A stretch of DNA of 64,000 bases from Escherichia coli. Lineage in GTDB: Bacteria; Pseudomonadota; Gammaproteobacteria; Enterobacterales; Enterobacteriaceae. The stretch lies in the NCBI RefSeq assembly GCF_016903815.1, contig NZ_CP069973.1; one strand, written 5' to 3'. Made by a program: the position numbers. Shown here piece by piece: positions 21,601-27,600 of this stretch (its first letter is position 1; every line of letters begins with the position of its first letter).

Positions 21601-24600
21601 ATTCAGGGATGGCACGGGTAGAGGGCGAATTATTCAAAATTGCTCTGGCATCGCTGGAAGCAGAGCCAGTTGGTGATTTTTATGAATACAAACCGGATGA
21701 CTGGTATCAGCGTTCGGCTGGAGATAAAGCGCCAAAATGGACGCCACCCTATGCCGTTTTTCCAGCGCCCGTAGTGCCGGAAGAAATGGATTTGCTTACA
21801 TGCCATCTCGATGGTGTAACTGAAACATATGCTGAGGGATGGAACGCTTGCCGCGCTGCCCTGCTTCAGGGCAAAGGGGAGCCCGGGAAACAAGTTCGCG
21901 AATTGACAATGCTGGTTAAACAATTGGTTAGTCAACTGAAGAAACCGAAACCGGGCTGCAAATTGCCGGATAAAGTGATGGACTACCTGGAGCGAAGCGG
22001 ACTTATAAGCGTGGAGGATGTTTTACGATGACCTGGCCTGAAGCATTCACAACGGTAGGAATTGCGATGGCGGTGGCGCTGGTGGTGTATTCGATTTGCC
22101 GCTGGGGTTGATAATACTAAATAACCAGCCCTTATGGGGCTGGCTAATCATTTAGAACTGTTCATTGCCATCGAGGTTAGGTAGCATAATTTTTTCAATC
22201 AAGGCGAGAGCCTTTTTGTCCCGGTCAGCGAAGTATTTCGGGGCATATTGCGGCAACCAAATATTGTTAAAATGTTCTTTGAAATCTGCTAAATATTCAT
22301 TTGGGTACAGCCTTGCAGGGTATACGCGACCATCGGGATATTCATGGTCATAGGTAGGGAATGTTTTGGGTTCTACGTTTCTATTATCTCTTAACCATTG
22401 TGAAAATACTCTTCCTTGTGAAATGTCAGGAACCATTTTTTCTGGGAGTGTGTACCCTGCTTGTTCAAGAGGTGCAACCAAGTTGAATGTCAGTTCATTA
22501 AGAATAGAAAAGTGCGTGTGAGGAATTCTACTACGATTAACCATGTACCGTTTTAAATGTACAGGCATTTCTGCTGTAGTTCTTTCCCCTGACATCCATT
22601 CACGAACCCATCTTGAAACCTGGACTGCAAATTTGGGCGATAGCCACTGCGCTAGATTAATAGCGATGTCAGGATGCACCCATGTCCCTTGGTTTTCAGG
22701 TCTTCCACCTTTAAATGATTGAATTAACTCCGATATGGGAATTCCCATATCGCGTGATAATTCGTCAAAAAACTCTTGAGTAGTTTTGAGTCTAGTGTAA
22801 TCAGAGAGCAGTTTGCCCGCAGTTCTACACATTGATGTGGCGTTTATGTAACCATCTTTGGCACGTAAATGTATTATTTCGCCGTCAATTTCACGAGAAA
22901 TCAAAGATAATTGAAAGGATGTCATTGAAAATTCCTCAAGTTGGAGAGTTCTGGAACATTAAGGCGAGGTGGCAGTAATGCACCATCTGTAATCTTTTGA
23001 TACTGACGTAATCGGGCCTGATGTGCAACGCCTTGCAAGTATGTAACTCATTGAAAACGATCATTTTTATCTATTGACATCAAATGGCAAACTGTCATTG
23101 TGCGGCTATGGCAAGTGGCAAATGCTTATAAATCATATGGATATAAATAGTACAGAAAGAGTTGTTTTCTCTAGGATATGAGTATACGCCCAATGCTGAT
23201 TGGTTGAATTTTGTTCTTGTTTTAAAGGGTAAGAGTTTAAAGTGTTGGCAGTGATGTATTGGATAGTTAGAATTGCTGTGGGTGCTTGAGGCTATCTGCC
23301 TCGGGCATGAACACCAAAGGTAGATAGAGAAAAGCCCCAGTTAACATTACGCGTCCTGCAAGACGTTTAACATTAATCTGAGGCCATATCTATGCGACAC
23401 ATAGAGATTAGCCTCTTACGGACCGAAAGGTCAAGGAGAAGCAGGCTATGAAGCAGCAAAAGGCGATGTTAATCGCCCTGATCGTCATCTGTTTAACCGT
23501 CATAGTGACGGCACTGGTAACGAGGAAAGACCTCTGCGAGGTACGAATCCGAACTGGCAGACGGAGGCTCTGATTCGTAGACTACTAATCTGAGTAAAAG
23601 ACCCAGCGGGGAAAGAACCACGCCGGGACTAGTTAATAAGATATTTATAGCGTGGCTATTCTTTTTTTGCGGTATAGACTTTTTCGCCTGAGAAGTCTGG
23701 AGCTACCCAAAAGTTAATATTAAACTGAGCATCATCGCTTAGTTCAACACGGTGCCAGTATTGTGGTGGGCTTGTTGCAAAAGCGCCAGCATTAATGACT
23801 ACTTTTATCTCCGGTTCAGTAGCATTCTCATCAGCAAAACCATAATATGTTACAGTACCTTCCATCACGCATAACTGTCCAAAAACACCTGCTGCTGTAT
23901 TATGATGTGTTAATAACGCTGAAGGTACGTTCTCTTTTGTGAAGAACGGAGTTGAGCGTTTGATTACCCAGTCTTTAGGAATTCTCTTGTGTGTCATAAC
24001 CACCTCCCATAAAACATGCATTATAAATGCACCTTTTTGAGGGTTATGTCAAGCTGTTATGAAACACATAATTGATATGTTGATTAGAGGAGAAGATAGA
24101 ATCAATATGGTTGTTTTTCGTATAACTATTTGTTTTACTTTTAGTTTGTGCATTCTGTGTGTTAGGAATAACTTATTAAAGTTTAACTAAAAAATCTCGA
24201 TATAGTCCGCATAGATTACTGTTACTGAATCTTATTGTGTGCATTAGTTGTGTTCTGAAATTTCAATTTAATTACTTATGATATATTTTTAACGATAAAT
24301 GTTTTCCGGGTTAAAGACAGTGGGGGATGAGATAAGCAATATATCATTAATCTTGATTATTTCCAGGATGCCTTTACTGTGCATATAAATAAATCATATA
24401 CGCATCAAATAATGTAAAGGCATCCTTTTAGATATATCTTATCAAATGTTAATGATTTGAGTGGGAAACATGATTCCAGAAACTAATCATGCGGCTACTT
24501 TATAAAAATAATGCCCATATAAAACAGCCAGCGAAAAGGATTACGGATAAAAAAGGAGCGAGATGTGCATAGTTGTTATTTTCCATGTTTAACCACCTTA

Positions 24601-27600
24601 AATAATTGATGATGACGGGATGTGCATCTGTAATGCTTTTGTTGAAATGTTATGATAAAAAAGAACTTTTTCATAACATTAAAATGTAATTTATCTAATC
24701 GTTTTTAATAATAAGTGTTGTATTTCTATCCTTGTATCAGCTATTTGATATGTAGTGTTTGTTCATGTTATGTGGAGCTTTACACCATAGCCAGTTTATT
24801 TATACTTTATTCGTCAGCCTGAACAACTGGCATCTGCTGCACTGCGCCATCGAGAGATTGAGAAATGGCGCATATACAACTGGTCAAACAAACCTCTTCT
24901 GGACTACTTCTCCCGGCGACGCCGGAGAGTTGCGATTTTTTGCATCAAATCAAAATAGGCGAGTGGATACACGCAGACTTTAAGCGTGTGCGTAACTACG
25001 CATTCCACAAGCGTTTTTTCAAACTCCTGCAACTGGGATTCGATTACTGGACTCCGGTCGGTGGGGCGATCACGCCTCGCGAACGAAAGCTGGTTTCAGG
25101 ATTCGTTGATTACCTATGTGAATCAGTAGGCCGGGAACATACGCCAGCTCTGAGCGAAGCCGCAGAGCAATATCTGAATACAGTTGCGACACGCAGAACC
25201 CGGGATACGGCATTGCTAAAGTCGTTTGAGGCTTTCCGCGAGTGGGTAACCATTCAGGCCGGATTTTACACCGAGCATCTTTATCCTGATGGTAGCCATG
25301 GGCGTCGGGCGAAATCCATCGCTTTTGCGAATATGGACGAAACCGAGTTTCAGCAGGTTTATAAATCTGTTCTGAATGTGCTGTGGAACTGGATTCTGTT
25401 CCGTAAATTTTCCTCTCCGGAACAAGTCGAAAATGTGACCGCGCAGCTGCTGGAGTTTGCGTAATGGTGGATTTACGTAAAGCGGCGCGGGGGCAGATGT
25501 GCACCGTCAGAATTCCTGGCTACTGCAATCACGATCCGGAAACGTCTGTGCTGGCGCATTACCGACTGGCGGGAACGTGCGGAACAGCGACAAAACCACA
25601 CGATATGCAGGCGGCGATTGCCTGTAGCTCATGCCACGATCTAATCGACGGGCGGGTAAAAACCAGCGATTACACCAAAGAAGAATTACGCCTGATGCAT
25701 GCAGAAGGTGTTTTTCGCACACAAGAAATCTGGAGAAAGGAGGGATATTTGTGATTTACCCAACGAATACAGGAAAAAGCGGAGAACACCTTCGTCTCGC
25801 CACGCTGGAAAGTGTCTGGATTCAGGGCAAACTGCGTATGTGGGGGCGCTGGTCGTATATTGGCGGTGGCAGGTCAGGAAATATGTTCAATCAGTTGTTG
25901 GCATCCAAAAAATTGACGAAAACAGCCATCAATGAAGCCCTGCGCAGAATGAAAAAAGCGGGAATAGAGAAAGCTGAGCTGGAAGCGTTTTTGCGAGAGA
26001 TGATCAACGGCAAGCAAAAGAGCTGGCTGGCGCATTGTACTGATGCAGAGGCGTTATGTATTGATCGAGTCATAAGTGAGGTGCTGGCAGAGCATCCTGG
26101 ATTGATTAGTGTCCTCCGGCAACGGTATGAAGGACGGGGGATGACTAAGCGCAAAATGGCTGAATTGCTAAATGATGCACATCCTGAGTGGTGTTTTAGC
26201 ACATGCGAAAAGCGAATTGCTAATTGGTTGGCTGTTGCTGAGTATGCCCTATATATTCCCATGCGAGAATCATTTGCTCAAAAAATAGCTTGATTTTTTA
26301 CGCATAAACTGCTTCAATTCCGGTATGCTTCGCAAAGCTGTATCGCGAGGCGAACCAAGCGCATGAACTTTACCAGAACCCGCCATTGAGCGGGTTTTGT
26401 TGTTTCTGGTACTGGTGAACCTGATGTTTCATTTCTGGAGCGCGATTCCTGGCGGAATACCTAGAATCGAGACATTCTGGTAAAATTGTTTTCAGTACAG
26501 GATGTGGAGGTGAGATGAGAGAACTACCTAAAGATTATTTTTTAGGAGTAGATGATGAGCTCGTCGATTATCTTGAAAAACAAGGGGAAGAGACGATACG
26601 AGAGATTCATCTTTCTAACAAAACCAATGTTGAGAATGGATACAAACTTCTGAACATTCAGATTGTTGGAATTGGTTCATCTTTTTTATTGCTGACACAG
26701 AAAACTAATTTCGATTTTCTCACCGCCGGAATTACCACATTTACATTACTATGGACATGGTGCGCCATTTACTTGGTATGTACTGGTTTATCTGTGAAGG
26801 TTAGGGGCCTGATCAATGCCCCTCCTGATCATCTATATCATGAAAAATATAAGGATATGGAGCCCTCGAGCTTTAAAATATTCGCTGATGCAGGATATTT
26901 AGGACCTGATAAGTTATTGCCGCTTATACGAAGGTATCGCCTTGTTGACTTGAGTGATACAGCAAGAGAGTTACTGTTGGAAAATGAGAAAATCCGCACG
27001 AGTCTCGATAAAGCAAGGATGTATACCATCCTTGCTCCGGTAGCGGCGATGTTTATCTCGGCTGTTTTTTTATATGTTCAATGACTGAGTCGGCAGAATC
27101 TCCAACAAAAACACGACGTGTAGCAAAGTCTGTAGTACTTTGTGTTGGAGTTGGTTTTGGTGCCACGGGTTGCTGAGGTTTATTTTCACCTTGTGGTTTG
27201 TTTTTTTCAGACATAAAAATCCTCTTTGTTTGAATTGTTACTTTTGGCGATTTAACGATATCAAACACGAGTATATACCGCCAGAAGCTTAATCTGGCAC
27301 TCCATCTGGCCCCGGCATGTCCCGGGGCTTTTTCGTTGTTAGGCTCTGGAAACATCCTCGACTTCTTGTTAGCAAGCCTGAGAGCCTGAATCTTACACTT
27401 AGCACCATCCGAACTCTCGGAGGTGAGGCTTATGAAAATGCACAATGCCCCTCATTCCTGGCCTGACTTACTGGAACTCTTACAAAGTTGGTGGCGTGGA
27501 GATACGCCGCTGGGTGCAGTGGTTATGTCAATTATTATGGCTGGTTTGCGCATTGCCTATTTTGGCGGTGGCGGCGGCTGGAAACGAAAAACGCTTGAGA

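What the first reader, a model, noticed from the sequence alone, without database searches (positions are those of the whole stretch)
22100..24865. AT-rich accessory island inside the prophage: KilA-N protein, Hok-like toxin, unknown ORF and about 830 bp of non-coding AT-rich DNA
Between the replication-proximal genes and the Q-proximal genes there is a compositionally distinct block whose genes are transcribed opposite to or independently of the surrounding phage operon. It holds a KilA-N domain protein with an unknown C-terminal domain (22152-22925, minus strand), a hok/mok-like locus (23392-23573), a 121-aa unknown ORF (23656-24021, minus strand) and a long AT-rich non-coding stretch (24030-24860) with a perfect 13-bp inverted repeat. 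Such insertions are typical sites of defence or toxin cargo and of H-NS-silenced DNA.
Basis: partly seen in the sequence, partly recalled or inferred. Interest (0 to 1): 0.55.

Follow-up and report, generated by a model that had tools for sequence, protein, structure and literature searches.

The report
Prophage defence island with embedded palindrome
This AT-rich stretch is a swappable cargo slot in an E. coli Rac-type prophage carrying a known type of anti-phage "suicide" gene (BstA family), a broken Hok toxin gene and a small gene of unknown role; the defence gene also contains a DNA palindrome preserved by matching mutations in many bacterial phyla, which I found described nowhere.

Summary
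Window 22100-24865 is an AT-rich (38.4% GC against about 50% in the flanks), variable cargo block between the replication and nin-like genes of a Rac-family E. coli prophage integrated at ttcA.

The "unknown" parts are mostly identifiable:
- **KilA-N protein:** a BstA-family abortive-infection protein. PHROG 6287 gives E 2.7e-89, and the C-terminal domain is 32% identical to BTP1 BstA. Homologs 78-88% identical sit directly downstream of cI-like repressors.
- **hok/sok locus:** a recombinant, frameshifted hokD of 41 aa that has lost its fbi element, so it is probably dead.
- **The 121-aa ORF:** a 113-aa DUF1971/YeaR-like cupin, about 80% identical to PDB 3DL3.
- **The AT-rich stretch:** two modules. 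The right one carries an unannotated, conserved 28-codon hydrophobic ORF.

One result was unexpected. A perfect 22-bp palindrome (22731-22752) lies inside the KilA-N coding sequence. It is kept across at least eight phyla by compensatory changes in both arms, including synonymous sites. Covariation is 0.33 against 0.12 when shuffled, and 9.4 of 12 pairs form against 7.0 under synonymous resampling. Its function is unknown; my leading guess is a self-recognition or self-immunity DNA site.

As first described, the island is ordinary. The palindrome makes it worth following up.

The parts
21528..22031 (+). 167-aa ORF of unknown function (PHROG 660).
   Evidence: It co-occurs with the BstA-like gene in window-type and L045-type loci and is absent from QueH-type loci.
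22122..22146 (-). Intrinsic-terminator-like hairpin directly after the BstA-like stop codon
   Evidence: 10-bp stem with 6 G-C pairs, followed by a T-rich tail.
22152..22925 (-). BstA-family gene of 257 aa: N-terminal canonical KilA-N domain (residues 14-112) and C-terminal BstA-type domain (about residues 119-251)
22731..22752 (.). Perfect 22-bp palindrome CGATATGGGAA|TTCCCATATCG inside the KilA-N coding sequence (gene nt 174-195, codons 58-65, RDMGIPIS)
   Evidence: Synonymous-site conservation peaks here. Both arms change in a compensatory way in diverged homologs. Covariation statistics are and the synonymous-resampling control.
23063..23090 (-). Promoter-like site for the BstA-like gene in the 354-bp divergent intergenic region (22926-23279)
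   Evidence: TTGCCA-16-AAAAAT, 9 of 12. Weak, consensus match only.
23245..23273 (+). hok mRNA promoter-like site (TTGGCA-17-TAGAAT), ending 7 nt before the Rfam-defined 5' end
23280..23450 (+). hok mRNA leader (tac, mok SD); the Sok antisense RNA is encoded on the opposite strand
   Evidence: Rfam RF01794, 101.5 bits, E 4.5e-23, full-length match.
23392..23451 (+). mok leader ORF of 19 codons; its stop overlaps the hok start (ATGA)
   Evidence: Read directly from the sequence. Identical in loci with an intact hokD.
23448..23573 (+). Frameshifted hokD allele of 41 aa. It is identical to HokD up to residue 37. The recombination junction lies at about 23555-23568.
   Evidence: NCBIfam Hok score is 34.8 bits, below the cut-off of 73. 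No fbi-like complement of the 5' end is found downstream.
23656..23997 (-). DUF1971 (YeaR/TehB-N-like cupin) protein of 113 aa. The longest-ORF start at 24021 is unlikely.
   Evidence: Pfam PF09313, E 4.7e-26. PDB 3DL3, E 2.6e-59; YeaR 3BB6, E 4.6e-25. RefSeq start.
24022..24495 (.). AT-rich (29.5% GC) upstream region that travels with the DUF1971 gene; contains the 13-bp inverted repeat 24365-24377 / 24414-24426
   Evidence: It is present only where DUF1971 is present.
24500..24586 (-). Unannotated 28-codon hydrophobic ORF (MENNNYAHLAPFLSVILFAGCFIWALFL) with SD AAGGTGG
   Evidence: Intact in all 47 occurrences across the loci examined, the window included (11 DNA alleles). Not in any protein collection or family library searched.
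24646..24680 (-). Conserved hairpin upstream of the small ORF on the same strand
   Evidence: The stem is 8 bp; one of its pairs is G-U in 14 sequences and G-C in 3.
24779..24806 (+). Conserved sigma-70-like promoter site (TTTACA-16-TATACT) upstream of DUF1367
   Evidence: 97-100% column identity in 33 alleles.

Best explanation
The block is a mosaic cargo (moron) slot at the junction between the replication genes and the nin-like genes of a Rac-family lambdoid prophage of E. coli. Recombination has assembled it from independent modules.

1. **BstA-family gene.** It is intact and stand-alone, with its own upstream region and terminator. By analogy with BstA of Salmonella phage BTP1, it would be expressed in the lysogen. 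Its KilA-N domain would sense the replicating DNA of an infecting phage. Its C-terminal domain would then block phage DNA replication and abort the infection.
2. **hokD/sok locus.** The 5' control region is intact. Recombination inside the gene replaced the toxin's 3' end, frameshifting Hok at codon 38 and removing the fbi element. The toxin is most likely inactive.
3. **DUF1971 (YeaR-like cupin) gene.** It carries its own 470-bp AT-rich upstream DNA. Its role is unknown.
4. **A conserved 370-bp module upstream of DUF1367.** It carries an unannotated 28-codon membrane-type ORF and a promoter-like site for the nin-like genes.

The identities, the mosaic structure and the hok lesion are shown. 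The abortive-infection activity and the expression pattern are inferred.
For: - **Prophage context and position:**
- **Identical block in other genomes:** at least 80% of the block is present in 99 complete genomes, essentially identical in the best matches listed.
- **Conservation of the gene:** the 90%-identity cluster has 355 members in Escherichia, Klebsiella, Enterobacter, Cronobacter, Citrobacter and Pectobacterium. About 50%-identical full-length homologs occur in more than 40 species.
- **Canonical BstA position in relatives:** an 86% homolog in phage PhiR5_2 lies 31 bp downstream of cI. In 28 IMG/VR loci the homolog lies directly downstream of a cI-like repressor. This is the position described in PMC8585504.
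- **Mosaic structure:** alternative contents between DUF977 and DUF1367.
- **hok lesion:** the window is identical to L045-type loci up to about 23555 and then diverges. fbi is missing. The Hok score is below the NCBIfam cut-off. In R1 hok, 18 of 20 possible premature stops abolish toxicity, and so do C-terminal tags or extensions (PMC9841398).
- **DUF1971:**
- **Small ORF:**
Against: - No experiment links this subfamily to phage defence.
- Its N-terminal domain does not align with BTP1 BstA by BLASTP. The PADLOC BstA profile matches only the C-terminal half.
- In this prophage the gene is not downstream of the repressor.
- No aba-like element with terminal direct repeats is visible at the 5' end of the gene (read).
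- Nothing here measures expression. AT-rich DNA in E. coli is often H-NS-silenced (general knowledge, not tested).
- Support for the 28-codon ORF is indirect: pN/pS is only about 0.4-0.5 on very few sites.
Confidence: 0.72

Rival explanations
1. The KilA-N protein is a transcription regulator or antirepressor of the phage's own cycle, like Ant, Roi or KilA-type proteins, and not a defence protein. The palindrome would be its autoregulatory operator.
For: - Many phage records annotate KilA-N proteins as 'transcriptional regulator', 'DNA-binding protein' or 'antirepressor'. PHROG 129 'transcriptional regulator' matches the N-domain at E 9e-25.
- The palindrome also occurs in KilA-N genes whose C-terminal halves are unrelated to BstA (L206; also L204 and L209, though the full-length product was not established for these).
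Against: - The full-length best match is the BstA family.
- The C-terminal domain is specifically homologous to that of the experimentally tested BstA.
- Close homologs occupy the lysogeny-expressed slot behind cI, where exclusion genes usually sit.
- No other copy of the palindrome, or of its 10-bp core with up to 1 mismatch, exists in the 64-kb window to serve as a regulatory target.
Confidence: 0.15
2. The whole block is decaying, silenced horizontally acquired DNA with no current function. The intact ORFs are simply recent arrivals.
For: - hok is frameshifted.
- Related loci show IS insertions and truncated KilA-N alleles of 113 and 176 aa.
- GC is low.
- K-12 Rac has lost this region entirely (K-12 gene order from my own knowledge, not checked with the tools).
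Against: - The BstA-like ORF is intact and 100% identical in 17 of the loci fetched here, and its exact sequence is on record on at least 1000 contigs.
- The family is conserved at about 50% identity across phyla without frame disruption.
- The small ORF is intact in all 47 occurrences found, the window included.
- Codon-level selection is visible in the palindrome.
Confidence: 0.08
3. The intragenic palindrome is a by-product with no function. It would be maintained by template-switch (quasi-palindrome correction) mutation, or be a side effect of the conserved G-I-P peptide motif.
For: - A single 11+11 palindrome is not rare by chance in 64 kb: 6 of 40 simulations reach that arm length.
- A sister clade with the same two-domain architecture lacks the palindrome entirely, so the protein does not need it.
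- G.T and A.C mismatches are balanced at 8 against 7.
Against: - With the amino-acid sequences held fixed, random synonymous codons give 6.97 +/- 0.20 of 12 Watson-Crick pairs against 9.36 observed.
- The third base of the Pro codon tracks the third base of the preceding codon in 43 of 44 alleles.
- Rare AT-rich codons (GGA, ATT, ATA) are kept even in Methylobacterium genes, a high-GC genus (about 70% GC from my own knowledge, not measured here).
- The arms differ between lineages while staying complementary: 63 double-sided changes against 21 expected.
Confidence: 0.12

Closest known systems
BstA abortive-infection proteins and their aba self-immunity element (Owen et al. 2021, Cell Host Microbe; PMC8585504)
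   Same: - Two-domain architecture: KilA-N(-like) N-terminus plus a homologous C-terminal domain (32% identity, E 3e-16).
- Prophage-encoded.
- Close homologs sit directly downstream of cI-type repressors.
- A Rho-independent terminator follows the gene.
- A short DNA element is embedded in the gene itself.
   Different: - The protein is shorter (257 against 307 aa).
- The N-terminal domain is a canonical Pfam KilA-N and does not align with BTP1 BstA by BLASTP.
- In this prophage the gene lies in the nin region, not behind the repressor.
- BTP1 aba is a 63-bp element spanning -29 to +34 with terminal CCCGCC direct repeats. Here the conserved element is a 22-28 bp perfect palindrome at +174, and BTP1 bstA has no counterpart.
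- No activity has been tested.
[quoted passage not shown]
   Same: - The Rfam hok leader/sok match is full length.
- Hok residues 1-37 are identical to HokD.
- A short mok overlaps the hok start.
- The locus sits in a lambdoid prophage between the replication and Q regions, as hokD does in Qin.
[quoted passage not shown]
   Different: - Hok is frameshifted at codon 38, so the last 14 residues are lost and replaced by 4 unrelated residues (41 aa in all).
- The fbi 3' element is absent.
- The 3' end derives from a different, already diverged copy joined by recombination.
DUF1971 proteins: E. coli YeaR (PDB 3BB6), the stand-alone 'TehB' protein 3DL3, and the N-terminal domain of Haemophilus TehB (3M70)
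   Same: Single DUF1971 cupin-like domain. About 80% identical to 3DL3 over 112 residues.
   Different: It is carried as a prophage moron with its own AT-rich upstream DNA. It has no methyltransferase domain. No function is known for any stand-alone member.
Moron / accessory-gene slots of lambdoid phages, such as lambda ren between P and ninB, and the DLP12 and Qin cargo between the replication and Q genes
   Same: - Same relative position.
- Own promoters and terminators, and opposite strand to the phage operon.
- Low GC.
- Contents vary between otherwise syntenic phages.
   Different: Nothing in principle. This is a typical example with a specific cargo set.

Membership tests
BstA family (prophage abortive-infection proteins) | N-terminal KilA-N or KilA-N-like DNA-binding domain | tested here: met
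   [not shown]
BstA family (prophage abortive-infection proteins) | C-terminal domain homologous to that of BstA-BTP1 (about residues 156-307) | tested here: met
   BLASTP of residues 125-251 against 164-302: 32% identity, E 3e-16. PADLOC BstA HMM, E 3.2e-21. PHROG 6287 'BstA', E 2.7e-89, covering 1-254 of 257.
BstA family (prophage abortive-infection proteins) | Full-length sequence similarity to the characterised BstA proteins, including the N-terminal half | tested here: not met
   The N-terminal halves do not align by BLASTP. The PADLOC profile match covers only profile positions 148-272 of 292.
BstA family (prophage abortive-infection proteins) | Prophage-borne, frequently directly downstream of the prophage repressor | tested here: inconclusive
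   The gene is prophage-borne. In this window it lies in the nin region, convergent with a 167-aa ORF. However, 78-88%-identical homologs lie directly downstream of cI-like repressors in PhiR5_2 and in 28 IMG/VR loci.
BstA family (prophage abortive-infection proteins) | Cognate anti-BstA (aba) DNA element within the locus, overlapping the gene's 5' end and bounded by direct repeats | tested here: not met
   No CCCGCC-type or other terminal direct-repeat element is seen at -29..+34 (sequence). A different embedded element, the palindrome at +174, exists. Whether it acts as aba is untested.
BstA family (prophage abortive-infection proteins) | Confers population-level phage resistance by abortive infection and inhibits phage DNA replication | not testable with these tools
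   Requires phage-challenge experiments.
[quoted passage not shown] | hok mRNA leader with tac/ucb elements and the antisense Sok region | tested here: met
   Rfam RF01794, 101.5 bits against a gathering score of 59, model positions 1-157 of 157.
[quoted passage not shown] | Complete Hok toxin of about 50 aa, including the periplasmic C-terminal part | tested here: not met
   The ORF is 41 aa, frameshifted after residue 37 relative to the intact 51-aa HokD in L006 and L045. The NCBIfam Hok score is 34.8, below the cut-off of 73.
[quoted passage not shown] | 3' fold-back inhibitory (fbi) element complementary to the mRNA 5' end | tested here: not met
   The best downstream match to the 12-nt complement is 8 of 12 and lies inside the DUF1971 gene. 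Loci with an intact hokD have CCTCAACGCACCC at the expected place.
DUF1971 / YeaR-like cupins | DUF1971 domain over the whole protein | tested here: met
   Pfam PF09313, model positions 1-80 of 80, E 4.7e-26. PDB 3DL3, E 2.6e-59; 3BB6 (YeaR), E 4.6e-25.
Lambdoid moron / accessory slot | Variable content between conserved syntenic flanks, deviant composition, autonomous transcription signals | tested here: met
   At least five alternative gene contents occur between DUF977 and DUF1367 in 86 loci. GC is 38% against 50%. The block has its own promoter-like sites and a terminator, and its genes lie on the opposite strand.

The most novel reading that the evidence does not exclude
The palindrome embedded in the KilA-N coding sequence has an invariant core, GGAATTCC, and lineage-specific arms that stay complementary. 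It may be the DNA site that the protein encoded by the same gene recognises. For BstA-type proteins it would be the functional counterpart of aba: a cognate self-immunity mark that cannot be separated from the defence gene, amplified when the prophage replicates and absent from invading phages.

According to the AF2 secondary structure, the palindrome encodes a helix-turn-helix stretch of the KilA-N domain. The G-I-P turn is at residues 61-63 and the following helix at 64-67. If so, the site and the protein segment it encodes would be forced to change together. More generally, KilA-N genes in many phyla would carry a self-addressed binding site.
Probability: 0.3. Interest if true: 0.85.

Novelty: new variant of a known kind. 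Interest (0 to 1): 0.62.

Why it matters
As first described, the island is a textbook prophage cargo slot, and naming its parts mainly improves annotation:
- "KilA-N domain-containing protein" becomes a BstA-family defence candidate. The exact protein is on record on at least 1000 contigs, and the whole block is carried by 99 complete E. coli genomes.
- "Hok/Gef family protein" becomes a dead recombinant.

The palindrome matters more. How BstA senses phage DNA, and how aba switches it off, are both unknown. The function of the KilA-N domain, which is widespread in phages, large DNA viruses and fungal APSES factors, is poorly understood in viruses. A short element preserved at codon level inside KilA-N genes from Proteobacteria to Firmicutes, Chloroflexi and candidate phyla gives a concrete hypothesis that can be tested with synthetic DNA, for both DNA recognition and self/non-self discrimination.

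The conserved but never annotated 28-codon ORF lies in a module that matches in roughly 15% of complete E. coli genomes (ORF integrity was checked in 47 occurrences only). It adds a candidate small membrane protein or type I toxin.

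Tried and rejected
**Palindrome**
- **Rfam:** a scan of 21500-25500 at E<=1 found only the hok/sok leader and nothing at the palindrome or in the AT-rich DNA.
- **aba-like direct repeats:** I looked around the gene start as in BTP1 and found none convincing. BTP1 bstA has no palindrome at the equivalent place.
- **RNA or DNA level:** I tested for a bias towards G.U over A.C mismatches and found none (8 against 7).
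- **Outer helix:** an outer helix (columns 3-8 with 40-45) shows many G.U pairs and a UA/CG switch. I discounted it because those columns are Leu (TTR/CTN) and Ile/Val first positions, which GC content could drive together.
- **Other copies:** I searched the window for other copies of the palindrome or its core as possible operator sites and found none.
- **Relocated palindrome:** the clade that lacks the palindrome has no relocated copy in or near the gene.

**BstA-like protein**

**Small ORF**
- **Lipoprotein signal:** the FAGC lipobox-like motif in the 28-codon ORF is not conserved in other alleles, so I rejected that reading.
- **Family searches:** exact-sequence and family searches for the small ORF found nothing.

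**AT-rich DNA**
- **Left half:** it has no relatives in the phage collection beyond identical prophage records.

**Sources**
- **The 'Escherichia phage vB_EcoS-673R7' records:** they carry the identical block, but I could not confirm that they were isolated as particles. They come from a preprint on phages located in the genomes of clinical isolates (bioRxiv 10.1101/2022.06.29.498070; title and abstract start only). I do not take them as proof that the prophage is inducible.
- **Literature:** searches for KilA-N together with 'palindrome' returned no paper.

Full report
**Context**

The window is E. coli DNA. The 2.9-kb region 22000-24900 is 100% identical in the best-matching complete genomes, and 99 genomes carry at least 80% of it. 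In strain 7/2 it lies inside a full-length Rac-family prophage integrated next to ttcA. That prophage carries intR, xisR, ralR, recET, kilR, sieB, a repressor pair, ydaT and ydaU/ydaV. It continues with DUF1627 and DUF977, then the block, then DUF1367, DUF1364 and DUF1133 (Q-like), lysis genes, trkG and the structural genes.

**Observation check**

- **GC content:** 38.4% for 22100-24865 and 30.8% for 24022-24864. The left flank is 50.6%, the right flank 49.3% and the whole window 47.3%.
- **13-bp inverted repeat:** it is perfect and rarely matched by chance in that region, 1 of 300 simulations. Its arms are not kept complementary in 94%-identical lineages, so I attach no function to it.
- **Left boundary:** the variable region really begins after DUF977, at about 21370, and includes the 167-aa ORF 21528-22031.
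- **The 121-aa ORF:** it most likely starts at 23997, giving 113 aa.

**The KilA-N protein is a BstA-family protein**

Pfam finds a canonical KilA-N domain at residues 14-112, E 1.4e-26, and nothing in the C-terminal half.
- PHROG 6287, 'BstA abortive infection system', matches residues 1-254 at E 2.7e-89.
- The PADLOC BstA profile matches residues 119-238 at E 3.2e-21.
- tblastn and BLASTP against Salmonella phage BTP1 align residues 125-251 with BstA residues 164-302: 32% identity, E 3e-16.

BstA is the prophage protein shown by Owen et al. (PMC8585504) to abort infection by other phages. It is neutralised for its own phage by aba, a 63-bp DNA element that spans -29 to +34 of the gene and is bounded by CCCGCC repeats.

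Context supports the assignment. An 86% homolog in phage PhiR5_2 lies 31 bp downstream of cI. In 28 IMG/VR loci, homologs lie directly downstream of diverse cI-like repressors. In the window type the same gene sits instead in the nin region. It has a 354-bp upstream region of its own and a terminator-like hairpin after its stop codon. The family is widespread:
- The 90%-identity cluster has 355 members across Enterobacterales.
- Full-length homologs about 50% identical occur in Alpha-, Beta- and Gammaproteobacteria, Myxococcota, Firmicutes, Chloroflexi and a candidate-phylum genome.

**An embedded, covarying palindrome**

The repeat scan showed a perfect 22-bp palindrome, CGATATGGGAA|TTCCCATATCG, at 22731-22752. 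This is nt 174-195 of the gene, codons 58-65 (RDMGIPIS). On its own it is not significant in 64 kb, since 6 of 40 simulations reach that arm length. The comparative evidence is what gives it weight.

1. **Synonymous conservation.** Among 33 distinct alleles, the fraction of identical codons at conserved residues rises from about 0.5-0.6 to 0.79-0.85 over codons 52-79.
2. **Compensatory arm changes.** Homologs 54-59% identical keep a perfect palindrome with different arms: CGATGCGGGAA|TTCCCGCATCG, CGAAACGGGAA|TTCCCGTTTCG and GAGGTCTATGGGAA|TTCCCATAGACCTC.
3. **Phylogenetic breadth.** In one-genome-per-species contigs the pattern recurs with further arm variants. Examples are Xanthomonas CCGATGTCGGAATTCCGACATCGG, a Rhizobiales 13+13, a Nitrospirae 14+14, and Verrucomicrobia CATCTATGGGAATTCCCATAGATG.
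4. **Covariation statistics.** On the ungapped 48-column alignment of 44 distinct alleles, a 12-pair stem gives 81.4% paired cells against 68.9% shuffled. It shows 63 double-sided changes against 21, and a covariation score of 0.330 against 0.123 (0 of 500 shuffles). Slid controls give 0.056-0.073.
5. **Codon choice.** With amino-acid sequences fixed, random synonymous codons give 6.97 +/- 0.20 Watson-Crick pairs of 12, against 9.36 observed. The synonymous third base of the Pro codon pairs with the third base of the preceding codon in 43 of 44 alleles: G/C 38, C/G 4, T/A 1.
6. **Rare codons kept.** GGA (38/44), ATT (40/44) and ATA are retained even in Methylobacterium genes. Methylobacterium is a high-GC genus (about 70% GC from my own knowledge; not measured here). 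GC content therefore does not explain the pattern.

The constraint is on nucleic acid, not on protein. Five further observations bear on what it is.
- **It belongs to the KilA-N domain gene.** KilA-N genes with other C-termini carry it too, for example L206; L204 and L209 also carry it, although their full-length products were not established.
- **More distant KilA-N genes have unrelated palindromes at a similar place.** Klebsiella phage 2 LV-2017 has TAAAGGTGGGA-TTT-TCCCACCTTTA, and PaV-LD has CGATATCG-GGAAGA-CGATATCG.
- **A sister clade lacks it.** That clade has the same architecture and the motif QTGLPE, and has no palindrome in or near the gene.
- **The mismatch pattern leans towards DNA.** G.T and A.C mismatches are balanced at 8 against 7, and the four central bases are also conserved. 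This fits a double-stranded or cruciform DNA element somewhat better than an mRNA hairpin, but it does not settle the question. As RNA the segment folds well, z = -3.5.
- **No other copy exists in the window**. Rfam has no family there. I found no paper combining KilA-N and 'palindrome'.

**hok/sok**

The leader/Sok region is a full-length Rfam match, preceded by a good promoter-like site. From the BstA-like gene through hok codon 36 the window differs by only two bases from loci that carry the identical BstA-like gene next to an intact 51-aa hokD (L045 type). Homology then breaks at about 23555-23568.

The result is a 1-nt deletion and a diverged 3' end. The ORF ends after 41 aa (RTGRRRL*), and the fbi sequence present in intact loci (CCTCAACGCACCC) is missing. 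The NCBIfam Hok score is below its cut-off.

In R1 hok, nearly all premature stops, C-terminal extensions and tags abolish toxicity (PMC9841398). The preprint's introduction reports that a disulfide between Cys29 and Cys46 is essential for HokB toxicity. It also links RNA editing of hokC, hokD and hokE mRNAs to Cys46. I conclude the toxin is probably dead. This is inferred, not shown. That hok genes sit in prophages is itself well documented (same preprint).

**DUF1971**

The 113-aa protein is a single DUF1971 domain. It matches PDB 3DL3 at E 2.6e-59 and E. coli YeaR (3BB6) at E 4.6e-25. It is therefore a known fold with no known function. It always travels with the left 470 bp of the AT-rich DNA and with a decayed hok-3'-like hairpin. 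That DNA is most simply its own upstream region.

**The AT-rich DNA**

It is unannotated in all 1040 matching genomes.
- **Left half (24022-24495):** it occurs only with DUF1971 and has no other relatives.
- **Right half (24496-24864):** this is a separate module that precedes DUF1367 in about half of 86 related loci, whatever lies upstream.

The right half contains a 28-codon ORF on the minus strand (24586 to 24500) with SD AAGGTGG.
- It is intact in all 47 occurrences found, the window included (11 DNA alleles, 8 peptides).
- It has no indel, although its flanks do.
- Substitutions in the hydrophobic tail are hydrophobic-for-hydrophobic, and pN/pS is about 0.4-0.5.
- Module homology begins exactly at its stop codon.
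- A conserved hairpin lies upstream on the same strand.
- It is absent from protein collections and family libraries.

I regard it as a plausible small membrane protein or type I-like toxin, not as proven. A perfectly conserved TTTACA-16-TATACT site precedes DUF1367.

**How it most likely works**

- **Shown:** the identity of the parts, the mosaic origin, and the lesion in hok.
- **Inferred:** the BstA-like protein is made in the lysogen and aborts infection by heterologous phages, as BstA does. The rest of the block is passenger DNA, of which only the small ORF and DUF1971 look maintained.
- **The palindrome:** it is under selection. My ranking is a DNA site recognised by the KilA-N protein itself, for self-immunity or autoregulation (about 0.3-0.4). 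Next comes an mRNA hairpin limiting expression of a toxic protein (about 0.3), then a replication-associated hairpin (about 0.15), and last a non-functional mutational by-product (about 0.1).

**Novelty and verdict**

The island as described is an ordinary lambdoid cargo slot, and its main gene belongs to a family published in 2021. The intragenic palindrome preserved at codon level, and possibly the small ORF, are new as far as the tools and literature available here can tell. I file the finding as a new variant of a known kind.

Noticed in passing
window 24500-24586 (-), with its upstream hairpin 24646-24680: Unannotated 28-codon hydrophobic ORF (MENNNYAHLAPFLSVILFAGCFIWALFL) with a strong SD. 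It is intact in all 47 occurrences found (the window included) despite about 22% DNA divergence. It is absent from a 15-billion-protein collection and from PHROGs and NCBIfam. It sits in a 370-bp module upstream of DUF1367 that matches in roughly 15% of complete E. coli genomes.
   Followed up: partly
window 24779-24806 (+): Near-perfectly conserved sigma-70-like promoter site (TTTACA-16-TATACT) about 60 bp upstream of the DUF1367/DUF1364/Q-like operon. If active in lysogens it would drive the Q-like gene, so it should be repressed or terminated somehow.
   Followed up: no
L214 (Klebsiella phage 2 LV-2017 KilA-N gene, nt 186-210) and L213 (Planktothrix phage PaV-LD ORF105, nt 213-234): KilA-N genes only 33-42% identical to the window protein carry unrelated palindromes at about the same place in the domain: TAAAGGTGGGA-TTT-TCCCACCTTTA and CGATATCG-GGAAGA-CGATATCG. 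An intragenic palindrome may therefore be a general feature of KilA-N genes.
   Followed up: partly
L164-L167, L170, L172, L174, L201 (genome contigs homologs): A sister clade of the same two-domain (KilA-N + BstA-C) family has the motif QTGLPE in place of DMGIPIS. It has no palindrome in the gene or within 300 bp upstream, which makes it a natural control group for experiments.
   Followed up: partly
[not shown]
   Followed up: partly
window 21528-22031 (+): A 167-aa ORF (PHROG 660, unknown function) belongs to the variable region. It accompanies the BstA-like gene in the nin-region arrangement but not in the cI-downstream arrangement.
   Followed up: no
L004, L006 and related loci (position equivalent to window about 21400-23200): Other Rac-type prophages carry an epoxyqueuosine reductase QueH gene in the same slot in place of the 167-aa ORF and the BstA-like gene. 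This is a tRNA-modification gene carried as phage cargo.
   Followed up: no
It is broken without compensation in 94%-identical relatives, so it is probably not a conserved structure.
   Followed up: yes
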